In this document: positions 6,655 through 55,321 of the stretch, piece by piece
Numbering within the stretch: position 1 is the stretch's first letter
Layout of the letters: the number at the start of each line of letters is the position of its first letter
IMG/VR virus record: IMGVR_UViG_2706794662_000007
Strand: one strand, 5' to 3'
Length of the DNA: 64,000 nucleotides
From: a virus
Taxonomy: Duplodnaviria > Heunggongvirae > Uroviricota > Caudoviricetes
The notes under the pieces: generated by a model
What the model was told of the DNA's origin: nothing
The model's database searches: none
The model's input: the letters and a program-made list of their open reading frames with translations, nothing else
Position numbers and translations under genes: made by a program

Positions 6655-7248
6655 ATGAAACGTTCGTTACTTCTTGCTTGTATATACCTCTCGTCATTTT
6701 CCGCCAATGCGTTGTCAGATATCGTCTCCGACATGCAAAAAACGTACAGCATGTATACTTCTGAAGACGTACTAAAATACGAATCACGAGGTCTGATTCA
6801 ACCAGTCTGGTTCAGATTCTCAGATAACGCAGAAGAAACAATACTTAATGCAGGAAAAGAAAGATTACGGTTGCAAATTAACGGAACCGCTGTACCAGAA
6901 AACGTTAATGTAAGCTCTGACGAAGCCATGAAGCCATCTGGAATTGTTTTGGAAGTTCAAGACGGCACACTTTACTGTGATGAAATGGCTACAACAGGTT
7001 GCCAAGTAAACATTAGGGTTGGCAATGAAGAGCCTATCGTTACTTACGCCAAGGCTGAAGGGAATACAAGTGGAAAGGTATTGTTTATCGATGAAAATAC
7101 CTCAAAACGTATCGTTCGTGACATACAGAAAACAGCGAACTCTAAATCCGTCGATAAAAAAATCTATGTTGAGGTTCCCTTCTTTGTCGTTGGTAACAAA
7201 GAATTTAAATTTGGGTTGCTGAAAACACCTCTAAGAGTATCAGAATGA
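6655..7248 (+). CDS. secreted protein with cleavable signal peptide (hypothetical)
   Basis: N-terminus MKRSLLLACIYLSSFSANA; in AT-rich island; stop overlaps next start (ATGA). Confidence 0.5.
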   Translation: MKRSLLLACIYLSSFSANALSDIVSDMQKTYSMYTSEDVLKYESRGLIQPVWFRFSDNAEETILNAGKERLRLQINGTAVPENVNVSSDEAMKPSGIVLEVQDGTLYCDEMATTGCQVNIRVGNEEPIVTYAKAEGNTSGKVLFIDENTSKRIVRDIQKTANSKSVDKKIYVEVPFFVVGNKEFKFGLLKTPLRVSE

Positions 7249-7766
7249 GAACATTGGACATCACCTACGGCATACCGGCTGAAGTATGGCCGCGAGACTA
7301 CGAACATGCTGAACGTACCTTGCTCTTCTGGCGGAGTGCAAAATTTCCTGTAAGAGTCACTCTCGAAGACGGCCAAGTGTTTTGCATGTATGTCTACGGG
7401 CTATTGAGCGCAAGAAATAAGCTGAACCTCACACCAGATCCGCTTAGCAACACAAATCGTATAAGGCTCCCTCTTGAGCGCATTAGCACAATTGAGTCGG
7501 GCATAGAAGAGGTTGACACTTCATTCACAGGTCGACTAACGCTAAACAATGAACAGATGGTTAATCAGCCATCACGTCGTGACTTTTTTAAGATATGTCG
7601 TCAGGCTTACCAAAACGGCAAATCTATAAGGGTCTACATGGCAGACGGTCGCGAAATTGAGGGAACGTCAGATGGCGTTGACGCCTGTCTAGTCACACTT
7701 AAGTTGGAAGACGGTAGAAAAATACTTATTTTCTTCGATTGGGTTGAACGAATCCTTCCGTTTTAA
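7245..7766 (+). CDS. hypothetical cytoplasmic protein coupled to secreted protein
   Basis: 173 aa ORF overlapping upstream stop. Confidence 0.5.
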   Translation: MRTLDITYGIPAEVWPRDYEHAERTLLFWRSAKFPVRVTLEDGQVFCMYVYGLLSARNKLNLTPDPLSNTNRIRLPLERISTIESGIEEVDTSFTGRLTLNNEQMVNQPSRRDFFKICRQAYQNGKSIRVYMADGREIEGTSDGVDACLVTLKLEDGRKILIFFDWVERILPF

Positions 7767-7988: not shown

Positions 7989-8063
7989 GAACGCATCAGG
8001 AACGAGTGCAAAACACTTTCTTTCTTGAGTTAAATTTTAATATTTATACTAAGGAATAAAATC

Positions 8064-8714
8064 ATGGCTAACATTATCATTTCTAAAAAGTCCATCATTG
8101 AAGCTGCATCTATTGTATCCGACGAACTGCGCGAAAAAGCAGATCTGGCAACTCAAACATATAACGAACATTATAAAAATGGTACGCACACTAAAGCAGA
8201 CAAAGCAAATATGCAAGCTGCGACCACTAAACTTGCTTACTTCATCAACAACGTCGTAAACGCTGTAGAAGACGAAAAATTATGCTCTGTTTTCTACTAT
8301 GCGATTAAAGCAAGCAAACAAGCGCCAGAAGTATTTTTTCGTGACGCTATGACTAATAGTTATTCACTGGAAAAACTGGTTTATCTGGTTAAATCAATTA
8401 AAGCTGGAAAATGTGTTTATTCCGTCGCTGATATGTCTGGATCTCGTGTATTCGCTTTAATCGATATGATTAACGACGAGATCGACACGTTCACGAATGG
8501 CGCTGTTTTCGATTTAATGAATGAAGCCAAAAAAGCGTGTGAAATTAAATTGGACGCTGGCTATACTCAAGCTAACCAGCTAATCAATCTTTGCGAACGT
8601 CTCGGACTTGTTGAGAAAGTCAAAGGAATGGGAAGCGCCAAAGCTGGTACACAGCAATATCGCTTTATCAAGAATGATTTCTACAATTATCTAGCTGACG
8701 CTTTCAAAGCGTAA
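8064..8714 (+). CDS. hypothetical protein (AT-rich island)
   Basis: 216 aa ORF, low GC codon usage, AAGGA ribosome-binding site. Confidence 0.5.
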   Translation: MANIIISKKSIIEAASIVSDELREKADLATQTYNEHYKNGTHTKADKANMQAATTKLAYFINNVVNAVEDEKLCSVFYYAIKASKQAPEVFFRDAMTNSYSLEKLVYLVKSIKAGKCVYSVADMSGSRVFALIDMINDEIDTFTNGAVFDLMNEAKKACEIKLDAGYTQANQLINLCERLGLVEKVKGMGSAKAGTQQYRFIKNDFYNYLADAFKA

Positions 8715-8763
8715 TTAATGGAATCAAGCGCCCACTATGGGCGCTTTAAAGGAGCTTTAAAAA

Positions 8764-8967
8764 ATGGTCAGCTATGACAAGATCCGCGCGGAATATCGCG
8801 CAAAGTATCGCGCTTATAAACTAGAATTAATCAATGATTTAATCGCGCAACGCGACCAATTAAATTTTACGTTTTCTGATTTGCTTAACAGCAAACGAGA
8901 TTGCAAGCGTAAACGTGAATACTTACGTTTAAGCGCATTAATCGGAAAACTTCATAATTCTATTTAA
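8764..8967 (+). CDS. hypothetical small basic protein
   Basis: 67 aa ORF with AGGAG ribosome-binding site. Confidence 0.4.
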   Translation: MVSYDKIRAEYRAKYRAYKLELINDLIAQRDQLNFTFSDLLNSKRDCKRKREYLRLSALIGKLHNSI

Positions 8968-8987
8968 TTTTTTTAAGGAGCTTAATC

Positions 8988-9215
8988 ATGGTTATTTTCA
9001 TCTCTGGCGTAAATATCAATAATCATACTCTTGTTTATGATATTGCTGGTTTAGCTGGATATGCTCTAAGTTCTGAAGTGGTTGATGAAACAACGTTTAA
9101 AATAAACATCAATGACGTAGAACATAGAGCGCGCGCAGGAATCAATGAAGCAGATGTTACTTTAATGCTTCAAGAATTTTTAAACGCTGGTTTTAATATT
9201 CGCTTAGAAAAATAA
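8988..9215 (+). CDS. hypothetical small protein
   Basis: 75 aa ORF with AAGGAG ribosome-binding site; followed by strong terminator. Confidence 0.4.
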   Translation: MVIFISGVNINNHTLVYDIAGLAGYALSSEVVDETTFKININDVEHRARAGINEADVTLMLQEFLNAGFNIRLEK

Positions 9216-9222
9216 AAACAAT

Positions 9223-9247
9223 AGCGCCCATAGTGGGCGCTTTTTTC
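9223..9247 (+). terminator. rho-independent terminator
   Basis: agcgcccatagtgggcgct stem followed by tttttt. Confidence 0.6.
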
Positions 9248-9579
9248 GTTTCCAATACTCCCACCATAACGCGCCAATGATGGCGCGTTTTTTATTGTCT
9301 TTGACTCACTCCAACAACATAAAAATAAGCGCCAAAATAACGCCATAGACGCGCTTTTATATCCTTGCCAGTACATACCCATTACTTAACACATTAACGC
9401 GCTTAAAACGCGTTATATTGCGCTATAGCGCATAGTTAATCATTGGCTTTTAGTCTTGCTATGTGATCCGCGTTTATTTGTCGGCGCGGATCGGCATTTT
9501 GTTTTGTTCCGTATCCGCTCGCGTATTATGTGCGCGTGATTTTTCACATAATCACACCACTTAATCACGTATGCGATTA

Positions 9580-9843
9580 NNNNNNNNNNNNNNNNNNNNN
9601 NNNNNNNNNNNNNNNNNNNNNNNNNNNNNNNNNNNNNNNNNNNNNNNNNNNNNNNNNNNNNNNNNNNNNNNNNNNNNNNNNNNNNNNNNNNNNNNNNNNN
9701 NNNNNNNNNNNNNNNNNNNNNNNNNNNNNNNNNNNNNNNNNNNNNNNNNNNNNNNNNNNNNNNNNNNNNNNNNNNNNNNNNNNNNNNNNNNNNNNNNNNN
9801 NNNNNNNNNNNNNNNNNNNNNNNNNNNNNNNNNNNNNNNNNNN
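9580..9843. other. N-run (masked or unresolved sequence)
   Basis: 264 consecutive n. Confidence 1.
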
Positions 9844-10324
9844 ACACGCCATCAAGGATGTGGATGCGGTTGCTTGCGTATACATTCAGCATAAAGTTAG
9901 CGCAAAACAGTTTCCATGTATCAACGCCAGCGGTATACGTAATGTTTTTGCATTTAATTGCATTGTTGGCGATCCGCATCCCCTGCGATACTGCTTCATC
10001 GTCGGAAAATTTGAACGACGATTGAGTTTTAATCCAGACAGAAATCTGCGTAGCGAACTCAATCAGCTTGGACTGGCAGAATCGCCCGGAGCGCACCGGA
10101 AAGACGAACGTTCCGAATCCAGAATTTACCACATACGCTTTCTCAAATACCCGCGAGTAACGACGATTGCCAATGATGTCGCGTGCAATAATGCATTTTT
10201 CTTGTGCTGACAGTTCTACCGTCTCATTGTCGCGCCATGCACCAAGTACTCGTTTTTCAATGTCAGAGAACGTTACAGCGATATTGCCATGTGCGGGTGC
10301 GTTTACAGTAGCGATAAAATTCAT
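9844..10324 (-). CDS. hypothetical protein, 3' end lost in N-run
   Basis: ORF starts MNFIATVNAPAHG at 10324; motif A at 10343-10360 upstream; true stop unknown. Confidence 0.4.
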
Positions 10325-10674
10325 GATTAATTCCTTATCGTAAATAACAAATTGTTTTCTTGTTGGCGTTAATTATCGTTGTACGAATAAGGCGTCAAAG
10401 TGGAAAGTTGCGGTAGCCGGACGGGAACAGGTGGGTTTGTCGGTTGCCTGGAGGTAAGAGGTTGGTGTTTTTAGCCTGCGGGAAACAGGATGGTCATTTA
10501 AGGCCACCAGCAGTGGTGGCCTTAATAATTATCGACCGATTACGCTAAGGATCTTTTCCTCAACTGATTTGTTGTTGCGACTAAACTGCCTTGCGTATCT
10601 GATGACAGAAGAGGCGTTTTGCTTTCTGACTATCTCGGCTCTTTCCTTCAGGCGTTTCTTGAAATCGCCCATAT

Positions 10675-11049
10675 TTACCACCAGGCGCAGAAGGTCAGTC
10701 TGTTATTGTGAAAGTCGTGGTTCTTAATCAGCTCTTCCACAAGTTTTTTCAACTCCCCCACGTCATGCCAGTACCCTTCATCGTACTCCTGACTGCCGAA
10801 GAAAAAACCTTCACAGGTAGGTAAGTACTCTTCGCAGTTACTTTCGTTCATGTGCATCAAATGAGCTTTCAGAGCACAAATGTCATTCATCGTTAATTCT
10901 AAAAGCTCACAATTTTTGACTTCACCTACGTTGCGTTCCATCCACCCAAAGAGAGCATTGAACTTACGGAAGTAAGCAACCTTCTTTCTGGATGCATCGT
11001 TATTCAGATCGTTTTTTGGTTGCGTCTCAATGTAGATATCAAGTCCCAT
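10675..11049 (-). CDS. hypothetical protein
   Basis: 124 aa ORF; motif A at 11107-11124 upstream. Confidence 0.45.
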   Translation of the reverse strand: MGLDIYIETQPKNDLNNDASRKKVAYFRKFNALFGWMERNVGEVKNCELLELTMNDICALKAHLMHMNESNCEEYLPTCEGFFFGSQEYDEGYWHDVGELKKLVEELIKNHDFHNNRLTFCAWW

Positions 11050-11126
11050 GATGGTTTCCTTATCAAGTTGCTTTCAGTGAAAGCATTTTCACAAATCAGA
11101 TAAGGCAGAAAACAAATTGTTATCGG

Positions 11127-11147
11127 GCATAAGAAAATGGCGCGGTT
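11127..11147 (-). terminator. terminator hairpin
   Basis: atggcgcggtttacgcgccat followed by T-run on minus strand. Confidence 0.55.
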
Positions 11148-11167
11148 TACGCGCCATTCAAAGAGGA

Positions 11168-11575
11168 TTAAGCGAATACGCTTTCAGGGATTAAGGTGTC
11201 AGCAGGAATGCCGGAGGTAATGCGCAGACCATACTGACCAATCCAGGTAGTGTTAGTGTTCAGACTGGAAGCGAATACGGTGTTAACCATATTCATCATG
11301 GTTTCAAACACCTCTTTATTCACCTTACGGAAGTAACTTTCAATTTTCAACAACAACGGGTCCGTTGCATCAAAAATGGACTGATATTGCGCCTCATATT
11401 CCCCGCCTGATGTATCTCCTTTACGCACAATAGTACTTGCCTGAACTTCAGTTCCAGTTTCGGTGTTGTACGTAACGACGGTGATTTTAGCTACATTCTT
11501 ACCTTCGGCGCTTTCTGAAGCATAGTAGACATCAACTGTCAGGTTTTCTCGTTTAACGCTCATATCACTCTCCAT
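11168..11575 (-). CDS. hypothetical protein
   Basis: 135 aa ORF. Confidence 0.45.
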   Translation of the reverse strand: MESDMSVKRENLTVDVYYASESAEGKNVAKITVVTYNTETGTEVQASTIVRKGDTSGGEYEAQYQSIFDATDPLLLKIESYFRKVNKEVFETMMNMVNTVFASSLNTNTTWIGQYGLRITSGIPADTLIPESVFA

Positions 11576-11632
11576 AGTGTCTTGGTTATTTTTCTATTTT
11601 ATAGACATAGGTATGTACTTACAATACAAAAA

Positions 11633-11651
11633 ACCCCGTAAGGATGGCGGG
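11633..11651 (-). terminator. terminator hairpin
   Basis: ccccgtaaggatggcgggg followed by T6 on minus strand. Confidence 0.55.
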
Positions 11652-11688
11652 GCTGTCGTACTGTCGACTAATTACCACTTGCACATTA

Positions 11689-12000
11689 TCAGGCTATTGC
11701 CATCACTGATGCTCTCTGAATCTCTTGCTGGGCCACGCGGTTAACTTCCATCAAAGCCAGTTCGAGCTGATGTTCCGGCCACATTCTTTGAAATGCCATC
11801 CAGCCTTTTCCACGCTGGCGACGAACATTCATTACATAACGAGTAAAGGTGTTTTTATCGAAAGACACCGCTGTTTCACGGAACAGACGAATAGAGGTTC
11901 CATTGGCAACGATGTCCAGCAAAGTTAATTGAGCAACCAGTGCAGGCTTCTCTTTTCTCTTCTGGTCTTTGTCCAGACCAAGAACCAATGATTTTTTCAT
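11689..12000 (-). CDS. hypothetical protein
   Basis: Start set to internal ATG (MKKSL) with GGAG ribosome-binding site; motif A 13 nt upstream. Confidence 0.45.
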   Translation of the reverse strand: MKKSLVLGLDKDQKRKEKPALVAQLTLLDIVANGTSIRLFRETAVSFDKNTFTRYVMNVRRQRGKGWMAFQRMWPEHQLELALMEVNRVAQQEIQRASVMAIA

Positions 12001-12154
12001 CACAACTCCGTAAACAACTTGTTTTCTCAATGGCGTAAATAATACCAGTAAGAAAACGGCTACAAAGCATATTGATCAGGCGCATGAGCGATATGCAGGT
12101 TCTTCCCTGCGGCTACAGATGAAGTTAAGCCAGCAATGCTGGCTTTGGTTGGGC

Positions 12155-12484
12155 TTACGCGAATATCGCAAGGAAGTCCTGAACGTCCCAATGCTGGACG
12201 AGGTGAAGATAGACCTTAGAAATCACGTCATTTTCGCTATCGCATGTGAAGTAGTACTTCTGGCTGCGGTTGTATGTGTCCACACAAAATTCGCTCATAT
12301 CCATAAAGTCAGCATCTTCACCCATGTCGCAAATCATCAAAGCAGGTGCGTCATCACGAGTCATCAGCTCCAGCACCCATCTTGAATTAATCAGAGTGGA
12401 AGACCAACCTTCCAGCTCATAAAACTGGTCAAACTCTTTTTGAGTCAATTTCTTAATTTGGTTGATGTCGATATTTGCAAACAT
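12155..12484 (-). CDS. hypothetical protein
   Basis: Start set to MFANIDINQ; upstream region is a near-duplicate of that of the 11689-12000 gene. Confidence 0.45.
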   Translation of the reverse strand: MFANIDINQIKKLTQKEFDQFYELEGWSSTLINSRWVLELMTRDDAPALMICDMGEDADFMDMSEFCVDTYNRSQKYYFTCDSENDVISKVYLHLVQHWDVQDFLAIFA

Positions 12485-12622
12485 AAAGCAATCCTTAAAC
12501 ATGTTGTTTTCTGAATTACGTAAACAATACCAGTAAGAAAACGGCCACAAAGTATATCGTTACGGTGCTGCGCTGCCCCGAGGTTAATAGCGACAAAAGC
12601 CACCGTGCTGGTGGCCTCACTC

Positions 12623-12841
12623 TTAATCTTGGTCGTCCGGGAACTCGCTGTGTACCGCGCCCACCAGCTCCCGCTTTTCATCTTCACTCAGCAGGTGCCA
12701 GATATCCTTCCCTTTGGGCGATTCCCCTTCTGCCGGGACGAACGACCACAACTTGCGGTACAACTCCGGCCCCACTGCATCCAGACACTCAGCCAGGGAA
12801 TCCACGCCCCACACCTCAACCGTCACAGGCATCTTAATCAT
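12623..12841 (-). CDS. hypothetical protein
   Basis: 72 aa ORF followed by hairpin. Confidence 0.35.
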   Translation of the reverse strand: MIKMPVTVEVWGVDSLAECLDAVGPELYRKLWSFVPAEGESPKGKDIWHLLSEDEKRELVGAVHSEFPDDQD

Positions 12842-14412
12842 CTCTTCATCCTCACTTCGTTTCTATAACGTCTAAATATGCTGTTTACTTGTTGGTGTTA
12901 TTATCGCAATAAGATAAAGGCGAAAAAGGATTTTATGTCGGGAAAGCCAGGCTGGGCAGTGAATATCCGGGAACGACACGAGAGCCAGTATTTACGATAT
13001 TCTGCTCTACGCGCGCCGCGGGGCTGGTGGGTAGAATAATCCTCTCCCCGAAAACCTACTGAAATCGATTGTGACCCGCTGGCTGTCTGGCACAATTACG
13101 CTGTATCTGGCATTCAGAGGGAATCCAGCGGTAAGCAAGTCAGCCTGCACGTGAGCGCCTCTCTTCTTCCCGCACATTACAGGTGGGTAGCTGCAACTCT
13201 CTCTCTCTCGCTATACCGGTACGCCGCCGTTCCAGAACCGGCATCGAGCCTTTTCCCGAAATCCACACAGGCAACTCGACCGTTTCCCTGAAAATCCCCA
13301 GCCGTTCCCCCGAAGGCAACCCAGCCGTTTCTGTAGCTGGATGCAACCTTTTCCCTGTATGGACCGAAGGCTGACCGTAGGGGGTGTTACGGGGGATAAA
13401 ATCAGGAGTTGAATAAATACGAAAAAGGAGGCGACCCCCCTCCTTCCCTCTCCACTTATACATACCTGGCTTCTTCGCTATACATGTTGTGTTTTATCTG
13501 TCTCAACCTCTCTATAGGCGTTAATGCTCACTCCTTCCAGAATGTTCTATACGGCGACTATTTCTGTTGGTGAATTGGGTGTGTTGTTTTCTCTGTCGGT
13601 GTATGTGGTTTCGTTAGTTTTGCGGTGGTTCTTCTATGGGGGTGTTCTCGTCGTTTTGGTGATTGTTCTTCTCCGTGTATGGAGTAATGGCAGGTGGGCG
13701 ATTGCTTTCGTTATTGTGTTTGAGTTGTTTGTCTGGAGTGTGTGAAGGCTTTTGTAGTTATTCGTGTATTGGGTAATGGCGTTTCCCGTGATTGTTATGT
13801 TTCGTGTCTTTTGGGATTGAGAGAAACCTTGCGGTTACAGGCTTCGTTAGGGTTTCAGCGGTTCAGGTGTTTCTTCGCTGTTTGGGTAATGGCGTGTCGT
13901 GGGTATCGCGCGTATGAATGTTTTCGGATTGCCTGTGAAAGTTAGGTTGGTTGTCCGGTAGCCTGGGGAGAAGAGGTGGGTCTTTTCGGTAGCCTGCCAT
14001 AAAGAGGTTGGTTGTTTTGGGTAATGGCATATGTGTTATTTGGTTGTTTTGTTATGCCTGAAAATAAGTTGTTTATATGGTTGTGTAACGCAACGGGAGC
14101 GATTTTGAGCGTGTGTTTTTGTTGGTAGTGTGTTGAGTCGTCTGTGGTGAAATTTGGACGCTGTGGCGCTATCTGCTGCGTAGAATTACGGGTATAAGAA
14201 GTGATGTGTGATAACGTCAATTTTTTAGACCAAATCGGGAGAAAGCGTTGATGTTTCGTTGATCTGTTATTTAGTTGTTTTCTTATTGGTATAAACAACC
14301 ATAACCTATTGATATTTAATGATGTGATTGCTGGTATGGGAGGGTAGTAGTGGCGATCAACGGGTTCTTATAGAAAAGAATCAAATTGTGACCGCCATTA
14401 TCAACGGTTTGA

Positions 14413-14598
14413 TTAGATGAGATGGTCTAATTCATCATCTATCATGGCTTTGACGCTGGAGTCGTTCACTCCATATTTATTTATGAGCTGTTTCAGCTCT
14501 GTCGAAAACTGAAGGTAGATATCGTGAGCGTTTTTCACTGTAGGTTCAACGCCACTCATTTCAAGCGCCTTTAGTAGATATGAGTCTTCTTTAAGCAT
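14413..14598 (-). CDS. hypothetical protein
   Basis: 61 aa ORF. Confidence 0.35.
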   Translation of the reverse strand: MLKEDSYLLKALEMSGVEPTVKNAHDIYLQFSTELKQLINKYGVNDSSVKAMIDDELDHLI

Positions 14599-14634
14599 AA
14601 ATTCTCCGTTATCTAGTATGAAGCGATTGCCGGA

Positions 14635-14934
14635 TTACCATTGCCAGCACTCAAGCCCTTCAACGACCGGTGCGCCACAATCAAAATGTACAGAGTTAAA
14701 GCCTACATCAAGTACTTTCTGAATGTTCGCAATCGCACCCTCGGATATACCATATCGACGCAACTCATCTTTCCAGTCATCGTCCTGTAACCCGGCGTGG
14801 ACAATGCAACCGTACTCAATTTGTGAAACCCAATCCAGCTCATTGCTTGCGATCATGAATCGGCGAGCATCTTCCTCTGATGTATGAGATGAACTGATCA
14901 ATGCCACCTGGTAGGCTTGGGTAATGTTCAACAT
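14635..14934 (-). CDS. hypothetical protein
   Basis: 99 aa ORF; two motif A copies upstream (14947-14963, 14997-15014). Confidence 0.4.
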   Translation of the reverse strand: MLNITQAYQVALISSSHTSEEDARRFMIASNELDWVSQIEYGCIVHAGLQDDDWKDELRRYGISEGAIANIQKVLDVGFNSVHFDCGAPVVEGLECWQW

Positions 14935-15045
14935 TTCAACTACTCCAAAACAAGTTGTTTTCTTATGTGGCTTATTATCTCAATCAACAAAAGGTAGAAA
15001 ACAAATTGTTTTAGGGCTTGTGTAAATCAGGAGGGATTGTGTCTA

Positions 15046-15095: not shown

Positions 15096-17034
15096 TTACT
15101 TAACCTGGTGGCCAGGTTTAGCACCAGCATCCGGGCTTAACAGGAAGATATCTTTCCCGCCAGGACCGGCAGCCATCACCATGCCTTCAGAGATACCGAA
15201 GCGCATTTTACGTGGTGCCAGGTTAGCCACCATAATGGTGTGACGACCAATCAGTGCCTGTGGATCTGGATAAGCGGAACGGATGCCTGAGAAGACATTA
15301 CGCTTTTCACCACCGAGATCCAGCGTCAGGCGAAGCAGTTTGTCAGAACCTTCGACAAACTCCGCGTTTTCAATCAGCGCCACACGCAGGTCAACTTTGG
15401 CGAAGTCGTCAAAGGTGATGGTTTCCTGAATCGGTTCGTCAGCCAGTGGGCCAGTTACCGGTGCAGCTGTGGCTTTCACTTCTTCTTTGGATGCTTCCAC
15501 CAGTGCTTCCACCTGTTTCATATCGATACGGTTATACAGTGCCTTGAACGGATTCACTTTATGGCCCAGAAGCGGTTGCTGGATACCATCCCAGGTCAGT
15601 TCTGTATTCAGGAATGCTTCTGCACGTTCAGTCAGTTTCGGCAGTACCGGTTTCAGGTACGTCATCAGCACGCGGAACAGGTTAATGCCCATAGAGCAAA
15701 TCGCCTGCAGATCTGCATCGCGACCTTCCTGCTTCGCCACCACCCACGGAGCCTGTTCATCGACATAGCGATTAGCCAGGTCAGCCAATGCCATGATTTC
15801 ACGGATAGCTTTACCAAATTCGCGGCTTTCCCATGCTTCGCCAATCACTTCAGCGGCATCAGTAAAGGTTTTGTACAGTTGCGGGTCAGCCAGTTCGCTT
15901 GTCAGCACGCCGTCAAAACGCTTGTTGATAAAGCCTGCATTACGGGAGGCCAGGTTAACCACTTTGTTCACGATATCGGCATTCACGCGCTGAACGAAAT
16001 CTTCCAGGTTGAGATCGATATCATCAATGCGCGAAGAGAGTTTCGCAGTGTAGTAGTAACGCAGGCTGTCAGCGTCAAAATGATTCAGCCAGGTGCTGGC
16101 TTTAATAAAGGTGCCGCGAGACTTGGACATCTTCGCGCCGTTCACCGTCACATAGCCGTGAACAAACAGGTTGGTCGGCTTGCGGAAGTTGCTGCCTTCC
16201 AGCATGGCAGGCCAGAACAGACTGTGGAAGTAAACGATATCTTTGCCGATGAAGTGGTACAGCTCGGCGGTGGAGTCTTTCTTCCAGTATTCGTCGAAGC
16301 TTACGCTGTCGCCGCGCTTGTCGCACAGATTCTTGAAAGAACCCATGTAGCCAATCGGCGCGTCCAGCCAGACGTAGAAATATTTGCCCGGCGCGTTCGN
16401 NNNNNNNNNNNNNNNNNNNNNNNNNNNNNNNNNNNNNNNNNNNNNNNNNNNNNNNNNNNNNNNNNNNNNNNNNNNNNNNNNNNNNNNNNNNNNNNNNNNN
16501 NNNNNNNNNNNNNNNNNNNNNNNNNNNNNNNNNNNNNNNNNNNNNNNNNNNNNNNNNNNNNNNNNNNNNNNNNNNNNNNNNNNNNNNNNNNNNNNNNNNN
16601 NNNNNNNNNNNNNNNNNNNNNNNNNNNNNNNNNNNNNNNNNNNNNNNNNNNNNNNNNNNNNNNNNNNNNNNNNNNNNNNNNNNNNNNNNNNNNNNNNNNN
16701 NNNNNNNNNNNNNNNNNNNNNNNNNNNNCTCTTCGCTGTGCGTCGAGTGATAGTTGTCATAGCTGATGTTAAAGCCTGCGAAATCAGTCTGATGTTCCTG
16801 ACTCATTTCGCCAATCATCTGTTCCGGTGTGATACCAAGCTGCTGTGCTTTCAGCATGATTGGCGTACCGTGGGCATCGTCGGCACAGATGAAATTAACC
16901 TCGTGGCCGCGCATTCGCTGGTAACGAACCCAGACATCAGCCTGGATGTGCTCCAGCATATGGCCGAGGTGGATTGAGCCGTTAGCGTACGGCAGCGCGC
17001 ACGTCACCAGAATTTTCTTCGCGACTTGGGTCAT
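15096..17034 (-). CDS. metG: methionyl-tRNA synthetase (interrupted by N-run 16400-16728)
   Basis: Start [29 protein letters not shown] (HIGH-type motif) and C-terminus ...[24 protein letters not shown] match E. coli MetG as I recall it; the two flanking ORF fragments are in different frames because of the N-run. Confidence 0.95.
16400..16728. other. N-run inside metG
   Basis: 329 n. Confidence 1.
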
Positions 17035-18904: not shown

Positions 18905-19423
18905 CTAAAAATCAAANNNNNNNNNNNNNNNNNNNNNNNNNNNNNNNNNNNNNNNNNNNNNNNNNNNNNNNNNNNNNNNNNNNNNNNNNNNNNNNNNNNN
19001 NNNNNNNNNNNNNNNNNNNNNNNNNNNNNNNNNNNNNNNNNNNNNNNNNNNNNNNNNNNNNNNNNNNNNNNNNNNNNNNNNNNNNNNNNNNNNNNNNNNN
19101 NNNNNNNNNNNNNNNNNNNNNNNNNNNNNNNNNNNNNNNNNNNNNNNNNNNNNNNNNNNNNNNNNNNNNTTTAAAGGAAGATAGGTTCCCCATAGTAGCT
19201 GTCTGCCGTGCGCTCGTGTGAAATACCGGGCCATCTTCGGATTGCTATGCTGCTTAGGAGCGCCTGGTCTGTATGTCTGATACCCGGCCAACATCCCATC
19301 AAACCTGTATAGAGGGAATGTAACAACTCCTTCGCTTTCATCGATCCACTGTCTATATGGATGCACATCATAGCGGTAGTTACGAGTTAGCAAATGAGCT
19401 TCCAGCTTTCCAAATTTAGTCAT
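18905..19423 (-). CDS. hypothetical protein (interrupted by N-run)
   Basis: Start set to MTKFGKLEAH with GAGGGA ribosome-binding site; C-terminal part and frame uncertain. Confidence 0.35.
   Translation of the reverse strand: MTKFGKLEAHLLTRNYRYDVHPYRQWIDESEGVVTFPLYRFDGMLAGYQTYRPGAPKQHSNPKMARYFTRAHGRQLLWGTYLPLXXXXXXXXXXXXXXXXXXXXXXXXXXXXXXXXXXXXXXXXXXXXXXXXXXXXXXXXXXXXXXXXXXXXXXXXXXXXXXXXXXXXXFDF
18917..19169. other. N-run
   Basis: 253 n. Confidence 1.
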
Positions 19424-21475: not shown

Positions 21476-21748
21476 TTAACCCGCAGTGCNNNNNNNNNNN
21501 NNNNNNNNNNNNNNNNNNNNNNNNNNNNNNNNNNNNNNNNNNNNNNNNNNNNNNNNNNNNNNNNNNNNNNNNNNNNNNNNNNNNNNNNNNNNNNNNNNNN
21601 NNNNNNNNNNNNNNNNNNNNNNNNNNNNNNNNNNNNNNNNNNNNNNNNNNNNNNNNNNNNNNNNNNNNNNNNNNNNNNNNNNNNNNNNNNNNNNNNNNNN
21701 NNNNNNNNNNNNNNNNNNNNNNNNNNNNNNNNNNNNNNNAGTTGCCAT
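21476..21748 (-). CDS. hypothetical protein (mostly masked by N-run)
   Basis: ATG at 21748 preceded by conserved junction GGAGAGTGATATG; body is n. Confidence 0.3.
   Translation of the reverse strand: MATXXXXXXXXXXXXXXXXXXXXXXXXXXXXXXXXXXXXXXXXXXXXXXXXXXXXXXXXXXXXXXXXXXXXXXXXXXXXXXXXXXXXTAG
21490..21739. other. N-run
   Basis: 250 n. Confidence 1.
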
Positions 21749-25187: not shown

Positions 25188-26892
25188 TCATTTAACGCGT
25201 TTGAAAACGTATACGCTGACTGTGATCCCTGTGTCTTCAAACTCGTTGGTAAACGACTTCCCTCTGGCATAAACGTAATTATCCATCGTCATCCAGTCCA
25301 GTATTGGCGCNNNNNNNNNNNNNNNNNNNNNNNNNNNNNNNNNNNNNNNNNNNNNNNNNNNNNNNNNNNNNNNNNNNNNNNNNNNNNNNNNNNNNNNNNN
25401 NNNNNNNNNNNNNNNNNNNNNNNNNNNNNNNNNNNNNNNNNNNNNNNNNNNNNNNNNNNNNNNNNNNNNNNNNNNNNNNNNNNNNNNNNNNNNNNNNNNN
25501 NNNNNNNNNNNNNNNNNNNNNNNNNNNNNNNNNNNNNNNNNNNNNNNNNNNNNNNNNNNNNNNNNCCAGATCGGCGTTAATATAGGCCAGAAGATCCCCA
25601 CGTCCGGCTTGAGGCTCCAACAGCTTCTCACCAGGCTTCAATTCAGTGGCTCTGGCAACGTACTCAGCAATCAAGCGTGGGGTAGGGTAGAACTGGTGTG
25701 ATTTTGTATCCGGTATTAAACCGGTAGCCACAATCGTATTTAGCGTATGGCCGATCTCATACGGGAACTGCCAGTGCTTTTTCTCCTGCACGCCGCCAAT
25801 GAAGCTCAGTGTGCGCTCAAGCTCTTCCACCTGCGACTTCTGGAGAGCTGAATCAGAGAAGTACCATACGCCTTTGTCTTTGCTCAATCGCCCGTCACGA
25901 AGCGCAGTGCGAACCGGCACGGAGATCGTCTTCTGGATTAACCCGAACTGCTTTGGTGCCCGTGTTTTTGGCGCAGTTCGGCATGGCGCGGGGATTGCAG
26001 CAGGCATACTGTAAGCCAGCACCTCATTCAACTTCCAGGCCACGTCAGGATGTATTTCAAAGTGAACGTTGCCGTTCTTGAACATCTTCACGCGCATCAG
26101 ATTTCCATCGACGTTCATCCAGTCACCGGTCTGGCAGTCGTTTGCCCGATACGCAGCTGATAGCACCTCAGCAGTGCGGTTGATGGTAATAAATTCTTTG
26201 TGCGCGAAGAAATGAAGCAAGACACGCAGATCGTCGATGTAGTCCTCTTTGCGATAGTTCACGCTAACGCTGTCACGCCAGAAATCAGAAATGCAGTCAG
26301 CGATTATCAGACGCTCGCTGAAACCGTTTGTCTTATTTGTCTTGTGCGCAGGACTCAGCGCCTTAAACAAGCCATACACGCGCTCAGAGAGATATTTGTG
26401 CCTGTCATTCAGCAAATTAAGCATCGTTGGTATGACCGTTTCTGCTTTGAACTCCGGTACACCAACGAACTCTTTAACCTTCATCTGATAGCCGGTTCTG
26501 TCAGTTTTGATGACTTCCTGCTTGCCCTCGATAAATAGCTCACGCCACTCGTCGCGACGGGAAGCTGGCATGATCAGCAGAACGTTAGTCATATCCGTAA
26601 CCTTCCTCCAGTACTCGGCCCAAATATTCTGTTTCACCCATTCCAGATCGACGTTATCCAGCCAGACTCGATTCAAACGTGAGCGATCTTCATCTGGTCG
26701 GTGGTTTAGTCGAAGCAGGCGATTAATCATGTTGTGGCGTTCATCGCCATAAACGAAGTCGTGTACCTGATACATGAAGGAGATCTCTTTCTCGCACTCG
26801 GCCACAATTTCGTGGATGACGTTCATTTCCTGTCGATAGTCGATAGCAGTGTTTGAGCTGGCATCGCCCATGATGGAAAGGGCTGTATTCAT
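25188..26892 (-). CDS. putative N6-adenine DNA methyltransferase with large N-terminal extension (C-terminal part masked)
   Basis: FYPTPRLIAEYV followed by EPQAGRGDLLAYI (motif X then motif I, gamma-class order) just before the N-run; the catalytic (D/N)PPY region would lie in the masked part. Confidence 0.45.
25311..25565. other. N-run
   Basis: 255 n. Confidence 1.
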
Positions 26893-43272: not shown

Positions 43273-45195
43273 AGCTGCGCCCCTCTTTAACTTCCAGCGT
43301 AATAGTTTCCCGGAACCATGACTTCATCTCTTTATGGGAGATAATCAGCACAGTACCTCGCTCGCGAGCTTTGGACTCCAGAATACCCATGAGGCGTTCA
43401 AGACCGGCTGTATCGAGTGCATCGTCAATTTCGTCGCCGATAAACAAATCGATGTTTTTACTCGCCCGGTTACTAACCAGATCCTGCAATGCCAAAGAAC
43501 ACGCAATGCGAACCTTCCGCTTCTCACCACCAGAGAGGGTCTGGAACGACTTACTTGAACCTTTCTTCTGCACACTAATGTTGAATTTGTCGCGATACTC
43601 ACCTTTTTTGGTGACATCCATCGTCGACCACTCAGCAGTAATATTCCCGTCAGACAACGTATTGAGATACTCGGCAGTGCGTGTATTCAGGAAAGGCGTA
43701 ACAGACGTCAAAATATGAGAACGCACCCCGGCAGGAGAGTAGACCTGACGAGCTTTTTCCAATAGCAACGTTTGTTCCTGAATAGCCTTCAACTCATCTT
43801 TTAAGGACTTGAAGGTAGACTTACTGGATACCAGGTTATCTTCGTGTCTGGCGATAAGAGCAATAAACGGATTAATCTCTTTTGATATACGATCGACCTC
43901 AGTACGAGCACGAGTCACAAGAGACTCAATAGCAACAATCTCCTTCTCACGATGACGCAAAGATGAGAGTTGTTTCGTAAGCTCTTCAATCCGGGCAATG
44001 ATAGCCGTTACATCAGGTGTCGTTTTAACAAGGGCAGACTCAATGCTTAACGCTTTCTCAAGATTCGTTTTGTGTTTAGCCATTGCCTCTGCAAGTGTCT
44101 TCGCCTGACCAATTTCCTGACGTGCTTGTTCAATGAAATTCTCCTTCACCGTTGATAGATCTTCTTCGCAGTAGGCTTTGCCACAAGTAGGGCATGGTGA
44201 TCCCACTTTAGTACCAACCTCTTCTGCTTTGGTCTTAAAATTACGCGCGCGGTTCATTGCATCAGCCTGACTATTTTCTGTAGCTTTGATGCTTGCCCGA
44301 ATATCAGTTATCGCACCACGAACNNNNNNNNNNNNNNNNNNNNNNNNNNNNNNNNNNNNNNNNNNNNNNNNNNNNNNNNNNNNNNNNNNNNNNNNNNNNN
44401 NNNNNNNNNNNNNNNNNNNNNNNNNNNNNNNNNNNNNNNNNNNNNNNNNNNNNNNNNNNNNNNNNNNNNNNNNNNNNNNNNNNNNNNNNNNNNNNNNNNN
44501 NNNNNNNNNNNNNNNNNNNNNNNNNNNNNNNNNNNNNNNNNNNNNNNNNNNNNNNNNNNNNNNNNNNNNNNNNNNNNNNNNNNNNNGATTGTCGACTCCA
44601 ATTTGGTTTTAACCACATCCATACGTGCGGCAGCTGCATTAGCTCGCTCACGAGCAATAGCGTAGGCGCGTGTCAGTCTGTCAACGCCAGCGGCTTCTTC
44701 TACGATGGTTTTGAGGTTTTTGTCGGACATTCCAGGTAAATCTGGCATAGCTTCTTGGCTCGCATAGATGGAAGCCATGAAAACCTCTTTAGATGCACCG
44801 ATCAGACGCTCGACGAACTCTTGCGTCAGCGCATCTTTGCCTTTCGTCATATCGCCGTCTTCACCACGAACGATAAGCCGATTTTTGAACTCTTTGTGTT
44901 TACGGTGACGAATGATCGCATATCTCTTGCCTTCATCCTCGATGGTTACTGCAACACGACAGTTCTTTTCATGGTCGGTAGACAACACATCGTCACCCTT
45001 CACACCATGAGCTGTTTCGCCATAAAGACACCACATCAGGCTATTCATTAGCGTTGACTTTCCAGAGCCATTACTTGATGCGGAACTATCATCACTATTA
45101 ACACCCTGAATGAGCACTAAACCACGCTGATCTAACTCGACCTCCGCGCTGGCGATAGCCATAAAATTCTCAACCTGGAGCTTTAAAAACTTCAT
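43262..45195 (-). CDS. SbcC/Rad50-like ATPase (gp46-like), interrupted by N-run 44324-44586
   Basis: N-terminal Walker A GSNGSGKST; C-terminal signature LSGGEKRK and Walker B LFIGDEID; coiled-coil middle. Confidence 0.8.
44324..44586. other. N-run
   Basis: 263 n. Confidence 1.
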
Positions 45196-54230: not shown

Positions 54231-55321
54231 TTACTCTTCTACTGACTCGGTGGGGTTGTCTTTTGCTCTTCGGTCGTCGATTGCCTGCAAAGCCGCAATG
54301 ATTTCAGCCAGTGGCTTCTCCCGATACATCTCGACGATCTGCGATTTGGTGTATTTCTTGTCACCAATTTCAACTCGCCCGCTGGCGTTCTTTGGCAGGT
54401 ATCCTTCTTCCAGCATGTACTCGACGAGCGATTCGATAACGTCGAGGCCACGAGTAGGATCGAAGTAGAATTTCCAGGTGCATTTGCCATACGGTGGTGC
54501 AACTTTGTTTTTGATGCATTCTGCGCCTACGTCCTGGCCGATCTTCTCTTTACCATCCTTCATCACCGATGCACCAAGACGGATACGTACAGAAGCGTAG
54601 AACTTCGGTGAATCTCCACCTGGAGACGTAGTAGGGTCGCCAAACATTACACCGATTTTTGTGCGAACCTGATTCAAGAAGATGATGCAGGCGTTGTATT
54701 TGCGTGCCCACAAAGCCAGAGTAGGGAAGTTCGCACTTGTCGCACGAGCCAGTGCCGTATTGTCGTTCATGTTTAGCTGATCTTTGTCTTTGGCAGTGCC
54801 TTCAGCCATCTTTTCGAACTTCTCGGCTTTGGAGTTCGGAACCATAGACGCAAGTGAGTCAGCCACGATACAGATAGGTGCTGATTCAGGAATAAGCTCT
54901 TCATCACGTACCAATTTAAGAATTGTGCCGATCAACTCTACAGAGTCTTCGAAGGTATCAGGCTGCTTGTATACCCACTGACCGTCATCCTCATCTGCAT
55001 TCAAACCATTGGCTACAGCCAGGCCAACGTCAAAACTGTTCTCATGATCGAGGANNNNNNNNNNNNNNNNNNNNNNNNNNNNNNNNNNNNNNNNNNNNNN
55101 NNNNNNNNNNNNNNNNNNNNNNNNNNNNNNNNNNNNNNNNNNNNNNNNNNNNNNNNNNNNNNNNNNNNNNNNNNNNNNNNNNNNNNNNNNNNNNNNNNNN
55201 NNNNNNNNNNNNNNNNNNNNNNNNNNNNNNNNNNNNNNNNNNNNNNNNNNNNNNNNNNNNNNNNNNNNNNNNNNNNNNNNNNNNNNNNNNNNNNNNNNNN
55301 NNNNNNNNNNNNTTTTGCCAT
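54231..55321 (-). CDS. RecA-family recombinase (UvsX/RecA-like), interrupted by N-run 55055-55312
   Basis: C-terminal part ...IIFLNQVRTKIGVMFGDPTTSPGGDSPKFYASVRIRLG matches the RecA core (loop L2 region); N-terminal ATG at 55321; Walker motifs presumably masked. Confidence 0.8.
55055..55312. other. N-run
   Basis: 258 n. Confidence 1.

What the first reader, a model, noticed from the sequence alone, without database searches (positions are those of the whole stretch)
9216..9580. Cluster of GCGC-core palindromes downstream of the island
Within about 350 bp there are at least six short hairpins built on GCGC cores (agcgcccatagtgggcgct, acgcgccaatgatggcgcgt, aacgcgcttaaaacgcgtt, tgcgctatagcgca, gatccgcg...cgcggatc) and aatcac direct repeats, ending at an N-run. 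This is more palindromes than a terminator needs, so the region may be a recombination or nicking site or a protein-binding array.
Basis: seen in the sequence. Interest (0 to 1): 0.4.

Follow-up and report, generated by a model that had tools for sequence, protein, structure and literature searches.

The report
Back-to-back terminator hairpins between converging operons
The palindrome cluster is real, but it is best read as a stack of transcription-stop hairpins, facing both ways, in a conserved non-coding spacer where two opposing gene blocks of an SSU5/pHCM2-type phage-plasmid meet; this is ordinary biology, not a DNA-transfer nick site.

Summary
Every quoted palindrome is at the stated place. 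Five of the window's 12 perfect GCGC-core hairpins lie in 270 bp, and GCGC/CGCG tetramers are about 8-fold enriched.

The window is an SSU5/pHCM2/pMT1-type phage-plasmid. Region 9216-9579 is the left two thirds of a 590-650 bp convergent spacer, present in all 55 distinct relatives examined.

T1 (9223-9241) and T2 (9268-9289) are textbook intrinsic terminators: -14 to -15 kcal/mol, T6 tails, nearly invariant stems and variable or flipped loops. H6 (9465-9492, -18 kcal/mol) is a third plus-strand one. H3 and H4 fold better on the minus strand.

H5 is lineage-specific and probably chance. The middle part exists as allelic types about 50% identical, with recombinants.

I found no relaxase, the family is typed non-mobilizable, the initiator gene lies 41 kb away, and there is no conserved ORF or Rfam match.

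Still unexplained: the AATCAC operator-like array, and the conserved right part, which is masked here. That part has GCCGTTYCC repeats, a paralog at about 13229-13345, and two Chi sites.

Verdict: a new member of a known kind, of low interest.

The parts
8726..8746 (+). T0: hairpin AAGCGCCCA-CTA-TGGGCGCTT just after the stop of the 216-aa gene (8064-8714). It has the same stem as T1 with the loop in the opposite orientation, and only a weak T-run (TTT).
   Evidence: -15.4 kcal/mol, z -2.85. It is present at this position in all lineages aligned.
8764..9215 (+). Two small genes (67 aa, phrog_6145; 75 aa, phrog_1585) bracketed by T0 and T1. These are the last genes of the rightward unit. Other lineages carry only one of the two.
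   Evidence: gene tables.
9223..9246 (+). T1: intrinsic terminator with an 8-bp stem AGCGCCCA/TGGGCGCT, a 3-nt loop and a T6 tail. It also scores on the - strand (tail ATTGTTTTTA), so it is possibly bidirectional.
   Evidence: -14.1 kcal/mol, z -4.5. The stem is invariant in 52 of 55 distinct relatives, with one compensatory A-T to G-C change, and the loop is flipped in several lineages.
9268..9295 (+). T2: second intrinsic terminator, 45 nt after T1, with a 9-bp stem AACGCGCCA/TGGCGCGTT, a 4-nt loop and a T6 tail.
   Evidence: -14.8 kcal/mol, z -3.7. The stem is conserved, and the loop occurs as two sequences in both orientations. T1 and T2 are the only adjacent pair of stringent terminator-like sites in the 64 kb window.
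9318..9356 (-). H3: weak hairpin that folds better on the - strand (GGCGUUAUUUUGGCGCU followed by UAUUUUU). The invariant block AAAAATAAGCGCCA forms its 3' arm and U-tract.
   Evidence: The - strand is more stable in 51 of 55 relatives (mean -8.5 vs -5.3 kcal/mol).
9395..9415 (-). H4: hairpin TAACGCG/CGCGTTA, in this form specific to the E. coli type. The other types have a different hairpin here that also favours the - strand and is followed by a U-run.
   Evidence: The - strand is more stable in 49 of 55 relatives.
9419..9432 (.). H5: 14-bp perfect palindrome TGCGCTATAGCGCA. It is lineage-specific and most likely without a function of its own.
   Evidence: It occurs as a palindrome only in the window and 2 of the 55 relatives. 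Most E-type relatives read TTGCGCTATAGAGTATGG. Folding gives z -0.96.
9461..9506 (+). H6: strong + strand terminator-like hairpin (GATCCGCG N12 CGCGGATC, extended stem) followed by UUUUGUUUUG. It is specific to E. coli-type spacers and contains the region's two GATC sites.
   Evidence: -18.3 kcal/mol, z -3.6. The + strand is more stable in 52 of 55 relatives. The stem is absent in the pMT1 and Klebsiella types.
9520..9548 (+). H7: weak hairpin CGCGTA-TTA-TGTGCGCG followed by TGATTTTT. It lies inside the conserved block GCTCGCGTAT.AT.
   Evidence: z -1.6.
9536..9579 (.). AATCAC array: GTGATT (9536), AATCAC (9550), AATCAC (9563) and GCGATTA (9573), including an 18-bp near-palindrome TAATCACGTATGCGATTA. 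This is a perfect TAATCACATATGTGATTA in some relatives. It looks like an operator; no binding protein is known.
   Evidence: (family D6). It is partly kept in the pMT1 type (ATTCACATAATCAC) and deleted in the Klebsiella type.
9580..9843 (.). Masked stretch. In a 96.7%-identical relative it holds the most conserved part of the spacer: TTCTACATAAAGG, 3-4 direct GCCGTTYCC repeats (22-nt spacing between the first two), two oppositely oriented Chi octamers, the - strand terminator of the downstream gene (GGGCC..GGCCC followed by TTTCTCT), and that gene's stop codon.
   Evidence: The mask is one of seven N-runs of 250-330 nt.
9844..10324 (-). The 160-aa gene of unknown function (phrog_1641), last gene of the long leftward unit. 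Its 3' end is hidden by the mask.
13229..13345 (+). Paralog of the masked right part of the spacer: GCCGTTYCC-type repeats 22 nt apart. About 100 nt further on lies a - strand terminator at 13425-13445.
   Evidence: nhmmer E = 1e-4 in the relative plasmid. The same second hit lies about 3.5 kb from the spacer in several IMG/VR contigs. Sequence.

Best explanation
Region 9216-9579 is the left two thirds of a conserved, non-coding, 590-650 bp spacer in an SSU5/pHCM2/pMT1-type phage-plasmid. A short rightward gene block (helicase ... 75-aa gene, ending at 9215) meets the long leftward gene block there (ending just inside the N-run).

Most of the GCGC-core palindromes are intrinsic (Rho-independent) terminator hairpins arranged in series and facing both ways:
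- Rightward transcripts meet T1, then T2, then H6 and H7.
- Leftward transcripts meet the terminator in the masked part, then H4, H3 and the reverse face of T1.

Together they insulate the two converging units from read-through and antisense transcription.

GCGC/CGCG cores recur because, in this AT-rich stretch, they supply self-complementary G+C-rich stems. That tetramer richness also creates incidental palindromes such as H5.

What is shown: the anatomy, folding energies, position, strand asymmetry and conservation. What is inferred: that termination actually occurs, and the insulating role.

The AATCAC array and the conserved right part are not explained by this model and probably carry an extra cis-acting function.
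For: Identity and context:
- The closest relatives are E. coli plasmids (90-97% identity) and SSU5-like phages.
- Gene tables show convergent units with a 590-650 bp gap in E. coli, Yersinia pMT1, Salmonella pHCM2, Citrobacter, Enterobacter and Klebsiella.

Terminator anatomy:
- T1 and T2 start 8 and 53 nt after the stop codon. They have 8-9 bp G+C-rich stems, 3-4 nt loops and T6 tails.
- Folding energies are -14.1 and -14.8 kcal/mol, z -4.5 and -3.7. H6 folds at -18.3 kcal/mol, z -3.6, with a UUUUGUUUUG tail.
- Terminator-like sites number 9 against 1.5 +/- 1.1 in shuffles. The same excess is seen in pMT1 (9 vs 1.0) and Klebsiella (5 vs 1.2).
- T1 and T2 are the only adjacent stringent pair in the 64 kb window.

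Conservation pattern:
- In 55 distinct spacers the stems of T1 and T2 are almost invariant, while the loops vary or flip.
- Hairpin potential with strand-specific G.U pairing persists where sequence identity between types is only about 50%. H3 favours the - strand in 51/55, H4 the - strand in 49/55, H6 the + strand in 52/55.

Other readings tested:
- No conserved ORF; reading frames shift between lineages.
- No Rfam family. The only hits are sub-threshold matches of the T1/T2 terminator pair to sRNA terminators.
Against: - No transcript 3' ends have been mapped, so termination is inferred.
- Six or seven hairpins are more than insulation obviously needs.
- The rightward genes next to the spacer (CYRAN_112 and 113 in phage Cyrano) are at the detection floor in lysogen RNA-seq, so no strong read-through pressure is evident in that state.
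- H3, H4, H5 and H7 are individually no better than shuffles.
- Stems that never vary give no covariation evidence.
- Blocks that are not hairpins are also strongly conserved (GATCCGCG, GCTCGCGTAT, the AATCAC array, the whole right part), so the spacer as a whole does something more.
Confidence: 0.6

Rival explanations
1. The spacer is a cis-acting DNA element bound by proteins. It could be an origin for phage-mode replication, an incompatibility or immunity determinant, or an operator region. The GCGC-rich repeats (TAACGCGC-like), the AATCAC array and the GCCGTTYCC repeats would be the binding sites.
For: - The spacer has invariant blocks across genera. In Enterobacter plasmids the DNA match begins exactly at the spacer, not in the flanking genes.
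- The middle part occurs as discrete allelic types (about 50% identity) between conserved flanks, with recombinants. Specificity determinants often look like this.
- AATCAC half-sites form an 18-bp palindrome.
- GCCGTTYCC repeats, the first two 22 nt apart, have a paralog about 3.6 kb away.
- A recurring CA..ATAACGCGC 13-mer is present (family D3).
- The element encodes its own DnaB-like helicase, primase and DnaE, so it should need a second origin somewhere.
Against: - The plasmid initiator gene is 41 kb away, and none of its neighbourhood carries the GCCGTTYC motif.
- Cumulative GC skew is monotonic, with no switch at the spacer.
- There is no consistent DnaA box or IHF site.
- The direct repeats in the flagged part are short and only 60-85% alike.
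- No candidate binding protein was identified; the neighbouring proteins have no Pfam or PDB relatives.
Confidence: 0.2
2. The spacer encodes one or more small RNAs. An example in E. coli-type spacers would be a roughly 70-nt + strand RNA, started from a promoter overlapping H4/H5 and ended by H6. A - strand RNA ending at H4 or H3 could overlap it, giving a sense/antisense pair.
For: - H6 sits 170 nt beyond T2. If T1 and T2 are efficient, H6 has nothing to terminate unless transcription starts inside the spacer. The same logic applies to H3 and H4 on the - strand.
- A promoter-like TTAAAA-17-TAGAAT lies at L001 7371-7399. Most E-type relatives read TAGAGT or TATGGT there.
- The predicted RNA would have a single-stranded A/U-rich 5' part, then a terminator hairpin and a U-tail.
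Against: - In the window itself the -10-like hexamer reads TAGCGC and is not detected.
- No promoter-like site is found in the pMT1 or Klebsiella spacers.
- There is no Rfam match.
- Covariation in the conserved right part is negligible: one compensatory pair on each strand.
- A Y. pestis sRNA survey lists two pMT1 intergenic sRNAs, and both are elsewhere.
Confidence: 0.13
3. The region is an origin of transfer or another nicking site, where a relaxase or nickase cuts next to inverted repeats (one of the first reader's suggestions).
For: Only the presence of several inverted repeats in an AT-rich non-coding stretch.
Against: - No relaxase, coupling protein or type IV secretion genes are annotated in the complete 109-kb relative.
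- 759 of 786 related plasmids are typed non-mobilizable.
- The element spreads as a tailed phage: terminase, portal, capsid and tail genes are present.
- The hairpins carry T-tails typical of terminators.
Confidence: 0.02

Closest known systems
Tandem and bidirectional Rho-independent terminators at operon ends (for example rrnB T1-T2, or terminators shared by convergent genes); comparison from general knowledge
   Same: G+C-rich stem, short loop and a T/U tail directly after the stop codon. Two or more occur in series. One hairpin (T1) has A-rich and T-rich flanks on both sides. They lie between convergent genes.
   Different: There are six or seven hairpins spread over about 320 bp, with mixed orientation, embedded in a spacer conserved well beyond the hairpins. 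Termination has not been measured.
Plasmid oriT (nic site plus inverted repeats)
   Same: An AT-rich non-coding stretch with several inverted repeats.
   Different: No relaxase or mating genes are present, the family is typed non-mobilizable, and the hairpins carry terminator T-tails.
Iteron-type replication and copy-control regions (P1 oriR/incA, RepFIB); comparison from general knowledge
   Same: Short direct repeats spaced about two helical turns apart (GCCGTTYCC, 22 nt) next to an AT-rich stretch. There are two separated clusters, as with P1 incC and incA. The plasmid is typed IncFIB.
   Different: The repeats lie in the masked right part, not in the flagged region. They are 9 nt long, not 19-22. 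The initiator gene is 41 kb away, and its surroundings lack the motif.
REP/BIME extragenic palindromes of enterobacteria; comparison from general knowledge
   Same: G+C-rich imperfect palindromes in intergenic DNA after genes, which can stabilise or end transcripts.
   Different: REPs are dispersed in hundreds of copies. The T1-type hairpin occurs only twice (T0 and T1), and the spacer matches only plasmids, never E. coli chromosomes.
Phage operators (inverted half-sites for a dimeric repressor)
   Same: The AATCAC/GTGATT half-sites form an 18-bp near-perfect palindrome, with extra direct copies.
   Different: No adjacent repressor gene or promoter was identified, and the array is missing in Klebsiella-type spacers.

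Membership tests
Intrinsic (Rho-independent) terminator | G+C-rich stem of about 5-12 bp with a loop of 3-8 nt | tested here: met
   T1 has 8 bp and a 3-nt loop; T2 has 9 bp and a 4-nt loop. H6 has 8-11 bp, with a 12-nt loop in its perfect 8-bp form and an 8-nt loop in the scan tool's extended form.
Intrinsic (Rho-independent) terminator | A run of T (U) immediately 3' of the stem | tested here: met
   T1 has TTTTTT, T2 has TTTTTT, H6 has (GGCA)TTTTGTTTTG. The run is weaker or absent for H4 and H5 on the + strand.
Intrinsic (Rho-independent) terminator | Position at the 3' end of a transcription unit | tested here: met
   T1 starts 8 nt after the stop codon at 9215. The spacer is convergent in every relative.
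Intrinsic (Rho-independent) terminator | Hairpin maintained in evolution (stems kept, loops free) | tested here: met
   Among 55 distinct spacers the stems are nearly invariant, the loops vary or flip, and T1 shows one compensatory change. The invariance limits the covariation evidence.
Intrinsic (Rho-independent) terminator | Transcripts actually end there | not testable with these tools
   This needs Term-seq, 3' RACE or a termination assay.
oriT / relaxase nick site | A relaxase (and usually mating-pair genes) encoded by the element or a known helper family | tested here: not met
   None is annotated in complete NZ_CP113488.1. PLSDB types 759 of 786 relatives as non-mobilizable.
oriT / relaxase nick site | A match to a known nic consensus next to an inverted repeat | not tested
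   No systematic scan with nic-site consensus sequences was run. Such short motifs would not be decisive on their own.
Iteron origin / copy-control array | At least three well-conserved direct repeats of 17-22 bp | tested here: not met
   In 9216-9579 the direct-repeat families are 10-21 nt long, and non-reference copies are mostly 60-85% identical (up to 91%). The GCCGTTYCC repeats are 9 nt and lie in the masked part.
Iteron origin / copy-control array | An adjacent initiator gene; DnaA box or DUE; GC-skew switch | tested here: not met
   The RepB-family gene is 41 kb away. There is no consistent DnaA or IHF site. GC skew is monotonic.
Known RNA family (Rfam 15) | A covariance-model hit at or above the gathering score | tested here: not met
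   The best hit is MicX at 33-34 bits against a gathering score of 75, and it aligns only the two terminators.
REP/BIME-type dispersed palindromes | Many dispersed copies in the genome | tested here: not met
   The T1-type hairpin is present only at T0 and T1. The query matched 0 chromosomes.

The most novel reading that the evidence does not exclude
The whole 590-650 bp spacer, not just its terminators, would be a dedicated cis-acting control element of SSU5-type phage-plasmids. It could be the origin used by the element's own helicase, primase and DnaE in the lytic mode, or an incompatibility or immunity determinant.

On this reading the allelic middle part (E, Y and K types, about 50% identical, exchanged by recombination) sets specificity. 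The GCCGTTYCC repeat clusters (spacer plus the paralog at about 13229-13345) and the AATCAC palindrome are the protein-binding sites.
Probability: 0.2. Interest if true: 0.55.

Novelty: new member of a known kind. Interest (0 to 1): 0.22.

Why it matters
As terminators, the hairpins matter mainly for annotation. They mark the boundary between the rightward accessory/helicase block and the long leftward DNA-metabolism block in a widespread family of phage-plasmids. That family includes pHCM2 of S. Typhi, pMT1 of Y. pestis, and ESBL-carrying E. coli and Klebsiella elements.

They also give a compact natural two-way insulator, and they show small palindrome-centred inversions and module exchange happening at this junction.

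The conserved non-hairpin blocks could turn out to be an origin, operator or incompatibility site. The spacer would then be a handle on how these elements switch between plasmid and phage life, which no paper found in the searches here describes.

Tried and rejected
- Rfam, on the unmasked relative and on window 8000-15000: only sub-threshold terminator look-alikes.
- Coding potential of the spacer: long stop-free frames exist, but the frame changes between lineages. A small hydrophobic - strand ORF (MALFW...) is truncated to 8 codons in the Klebsiella type and runs through hairpins. Rejected (own reading).
- Consensus RNA structure of the conserved right part, both strands: one compensatory pair each, so no convincing structure.
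- Plasmid origin: the initiator is 41 kb away, and GC skew shows no switch.
- Partition site: the 'MinD' gene of Cyrano is ApbC-like and 4 kb from the second non-coding region.
- pac-like TGATC clusters: 3 in the pMT1 type but only 1 TGATC (plus 1 other GATC) in the E. coli type, and the terminase genes are 5-9 kb away. Left open but weak.
- Chi: present in the masked part, but enriched about 10-fold over the whole plasmid, so it is not a property of this spacer.
- Published sRNAs on pMT1 (sR082, sR083) map elsewhere.
- Literature searches on SSU5, pHCM2 and pMT1 origins, packaging and sRNAs found nothing about this spacer.
- Neighbouring proteins have no Pfam or PDB relatives that would suggest a DNA-binding partner.

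Full report
**1. What the window is**

- Region 8000-9579 matches 240 E. coli plasmids at 80-97% identity and no chromosome.
- It also matches the SSU5-like phages PhiR41_1, CMS-2020a, Cyrano and SSU5, and Klebsiella relatives.
- A distant search with the unmasked relative finds 786 plasmids of Klebsiella, Escherichia, Enterobacter, Yersinia (pMT1), Salmonella (pHCM2), Citrobacter and Cronobacter. Of these, 759 are typed non-mobilizable.
- The window is therefore part of an SSU5/pHCM2/pMT1-type phage-plasmid.
- In the complete 109-kb relative NZ_CP113488.1 (96.7% identical here) almost every gene lies on the - strand. The main exception is a 4.6-kb rightward block from a helicase gene to a 75-aa gene.
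- The flagged region starts right after that block. The next gene, a 160-aa gene of unknown function (phrog_1641), converges from the other side.
- The gap between the two is 590-650 bp in E. coli, Yersinia, Salmonella, Citrobacter, Enterobacter and Klebsiella.

**2.

- All quoted palindromes and the AATCAC repeats are at the stated coordinates.
- Of only 12 perfect GCGC/CGCG-core hairpins in 64 kb, five lie in 9223-9492.
- GCGC plus CGCG occur 20 times in 364 nt, about 8-fold over the window rate.
- Terminator-like sites number 9 against 1.5 +/- 1.1 in shuffles.
- The region folds with z about -5 on either strand.
- The N-run is one of seven masks of 250-330 nt, and nothing about them looks specific to this feature.

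**3. Anatomy**

- T1 (9223-9241 plus T6) and T2 (9268-9289 plus T6) are canonical intrinsic terminators, at -14.1 and -14.8 kcal/mol with z -4.5 and -3.7.
- They are the only adjacent pair of stringent terminator-like sites in the window.
- H6 (9465-9492, extended to 9461-9497, followed by UUUUGUUUUG) is as strong, at -18.3 kcal/mol and z -3.6.
- H3, H4, H5 and H7 are weak taken one at a time.
- The same hairpin as T1, with its loop flipped, also follows the upstream 216-aa gene (T0, 8726-8746). T0 and T1 therefore bracket the two small genes, and other lineages keep only one of those two.

**4. Comparison with relatives**

I collected 55 distinct spacers: 13 from annotated plasmids and phages, the rest from IMG/VR.

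- The stems of T1 and T2 are almost invariant.
- Their loops vary, and the same loop repeatedly appears in both orientations: CTA/TAG in T1; ATTGTT/AACAAT and ATCATT/AATGAT in T2.
- This pattern indicates selection on the hairpin. It also shows that the palindromes undergo small centre inversions at the DNA level.
- The middle of the spacer (H3 to the AATCAC array) exists as three types. E is the E. coli type, which includes the window. Y covers pMT1, pHCM2, Citrobacter and Enterobacter. K is the Klebsiella type.
- These types are only about 50% identical to one another, while the flanks are 68-93% identical.
- Two E. coli plasmids are clear recombinants between types.
- H5 is a palindrome only in the window and two other sequences.
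- H4 and H6, in the forms seen here, are specific to the E type.

Hairpin potential nevertheless persists across types, with a consistent strand preference created by G.U pairs:

| Hairpin | Stronger strand | Relatives (of 55) |
|---|---|---|
| H3 | - | 51 |
| H4 | - | 49 |
| H6 | + | 52 |
| Right-hand terminator | - | 31 |

The pMT1 and Klebsiella spacers also show an excess of terminator-like sites. These include - strand ones at the H3 and H4 positions.

**5. Best explanation**

- The cluster is a two-way series of terminator hairpins at a convergent junction. Rightward transcripts meet T1, T2, H6 and H7.
- Leftward transcripts meet the right-hand terminator, H4, H3 and the reverse face of T1.
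- The GCGC/CGCG cores are the G+C-rich, self-complementary building blocks of these stems in an AT-rich stretch. Their density also produces incidental palindromes such as H5.
- This reading rests on anatomy, position, energies, strand asymmetry and conservation. Actual termination is inferred. I put it at 0.6.

**6. What it is not**

- Not an oriT: there are no relaxase or mating genes, and the family is typed non-mobilizable.
- Not the plasmid origin. The RepB-family initiator is 41 kb away and the GCCGTTYC motif is absent near it. GC skew is monotonic, and there are no consistent DnaA or IHF sites.
- Not coding: reading frames are not conserved.
- Not a known RNA family.
- Published Y. pestis sRNAs on pMT1 lie elsewhere.
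- Lysogen RNA-seq of Cyrano shows the adjacent rightward genes at the detection floor and the leftward neighbour modestly expressed. This does not argue for heavy read-through in lysogeny, so the need for so many terminators may apply to lytic growth, or may not be the whole story.

**7. What remains unexplained**

- Several non-hairpin blocks are invariant: GATCCGCG, GCTCGCGTAT, and the whole right part.
- The AATCAC/GTGATT half-sites at 9536-9579 form an operator-like 18-bp palindrome, which is perfect in some relatives.
- In relatives, the masked part carries TTCTACATAAAGG, 3-4 GCCGTTYCC repeats (22 nt between the first two), and two outward-facing Chi octamers.
- Chi is about 10-fold enriched over the whole plasmid, so the Chi sites are not special to this spot.
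- The repeat block has a paralog about 3.6 kb away, unmasked in the window at about 13229-13345. The paralog is also present in IMG/VR relatives.
- Consensus folding of the right part shows essentially no covariation. Its conservation therefore looks like primary-sequence, DNA-level constraint.
- These features keep alive a cis-acting DNA role such as an origin, operator or incompatibility site (0.2) and an internal small-RNA reading (0.13).

**8. Verdict**

There are indeed more hairpins than one terminator needs, and the region is conserved. The nick-site idea fails, and recombination is visible only as a by-product.
- This is a new member of a known kind, of low interest for the flagged region itself.
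- The spacer's conserved non-hairpin half and its paralog are the part worth an experiment.

Noticed in passing
window 12870-14420: A second long non-coding gap, unannotated in NZ_CP113488.1 at 71890-73485.
- It holds a paralog of the spacer's right part (GCCGTTYCC-type repeats at about 13229-13345).
- A - strand terminator lies at 13425-13445.
- A G/T-rich stretch follows (AT skew -0.29), with four GGGTAATGGC-centred repeats at about 13677, 13771, 13885 and 14019, and other direct repeats.
- It is conserved in SSU5-like phages at 69-97% identity.
It may be more interesting than the flagged region.
   Followed up: partly
window 8726-8746 and 9223-9241: The same 19-nt hairpin (T0 and T1, loops in opposite orientation) brackets the 67-aa and 75-aa genes. 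pMT1, pHCM2 and Citrobacter keep only the 75-aa gene; most Klebsiella and the Enterobacter plasmid keep only the 67-aa gene. The repeated hairpin may help small-gene cassette gain and loss.
   Followed up: partly
window 9231-9233 and 9277-9280; alignments: The hairpin loops of T1 and T2 occur in both orientations (exact reverse complements) in different lineages while the stems stay unchanged. These are small palindrome-centred inversions that recur independently.
   Followed up: partly
window 7245-7766 (+): A gene with a full-length match to Pfam PF03614, 'Repressor of phase-1 flagellin' (FljA-like; E = 1.4e-68). It is carried by the phage-plasmid in the low-G+C block upstream and could be a host-flagellin-silencing moron.
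   Followed up: no
whole window (e.g. 5959, 12607, 13023 on +; 1249, 10504, 12661 on -): Chi octamers (GCTGGTGG) are about 10-fold over-represented. There are 14 in the unmasked window against 1.3 expected, and 23 against 2.4 in the complete relative plasmid.
   Followed up: partly
window 9580-9843, 16400-16728, 18917-19169, 21490-21739, 25311-25565, 44324-44586, 55055-55312: Seven N-runs of 250-330 nt. The one next to the finding hides the most conserved part of the spacer, and it ends 1 nt short of the end of the downstream gene's stop codon.
   Followed up: partly
alignment A2; L016 (CP057431.1) and L017 (NZ_CP046008.1): The spacer is mosaic. Two E. coli plasmids combine E. coli-type and pMT1-type segments, with breakpoints inside the spacer. 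NZ_MG825385.1 appears to carry an insertion of about 270 bp there.
   Followed up: partly
L008 37122-39906 and L009 8463-12775 (NZ_CP113488.1): The closest complete relative carries ISEcp1-blaCTX-M-15 inserted among the phage genes. Its dnaE is interrupted by an HNH endonuclease gene.
   Followed up: no
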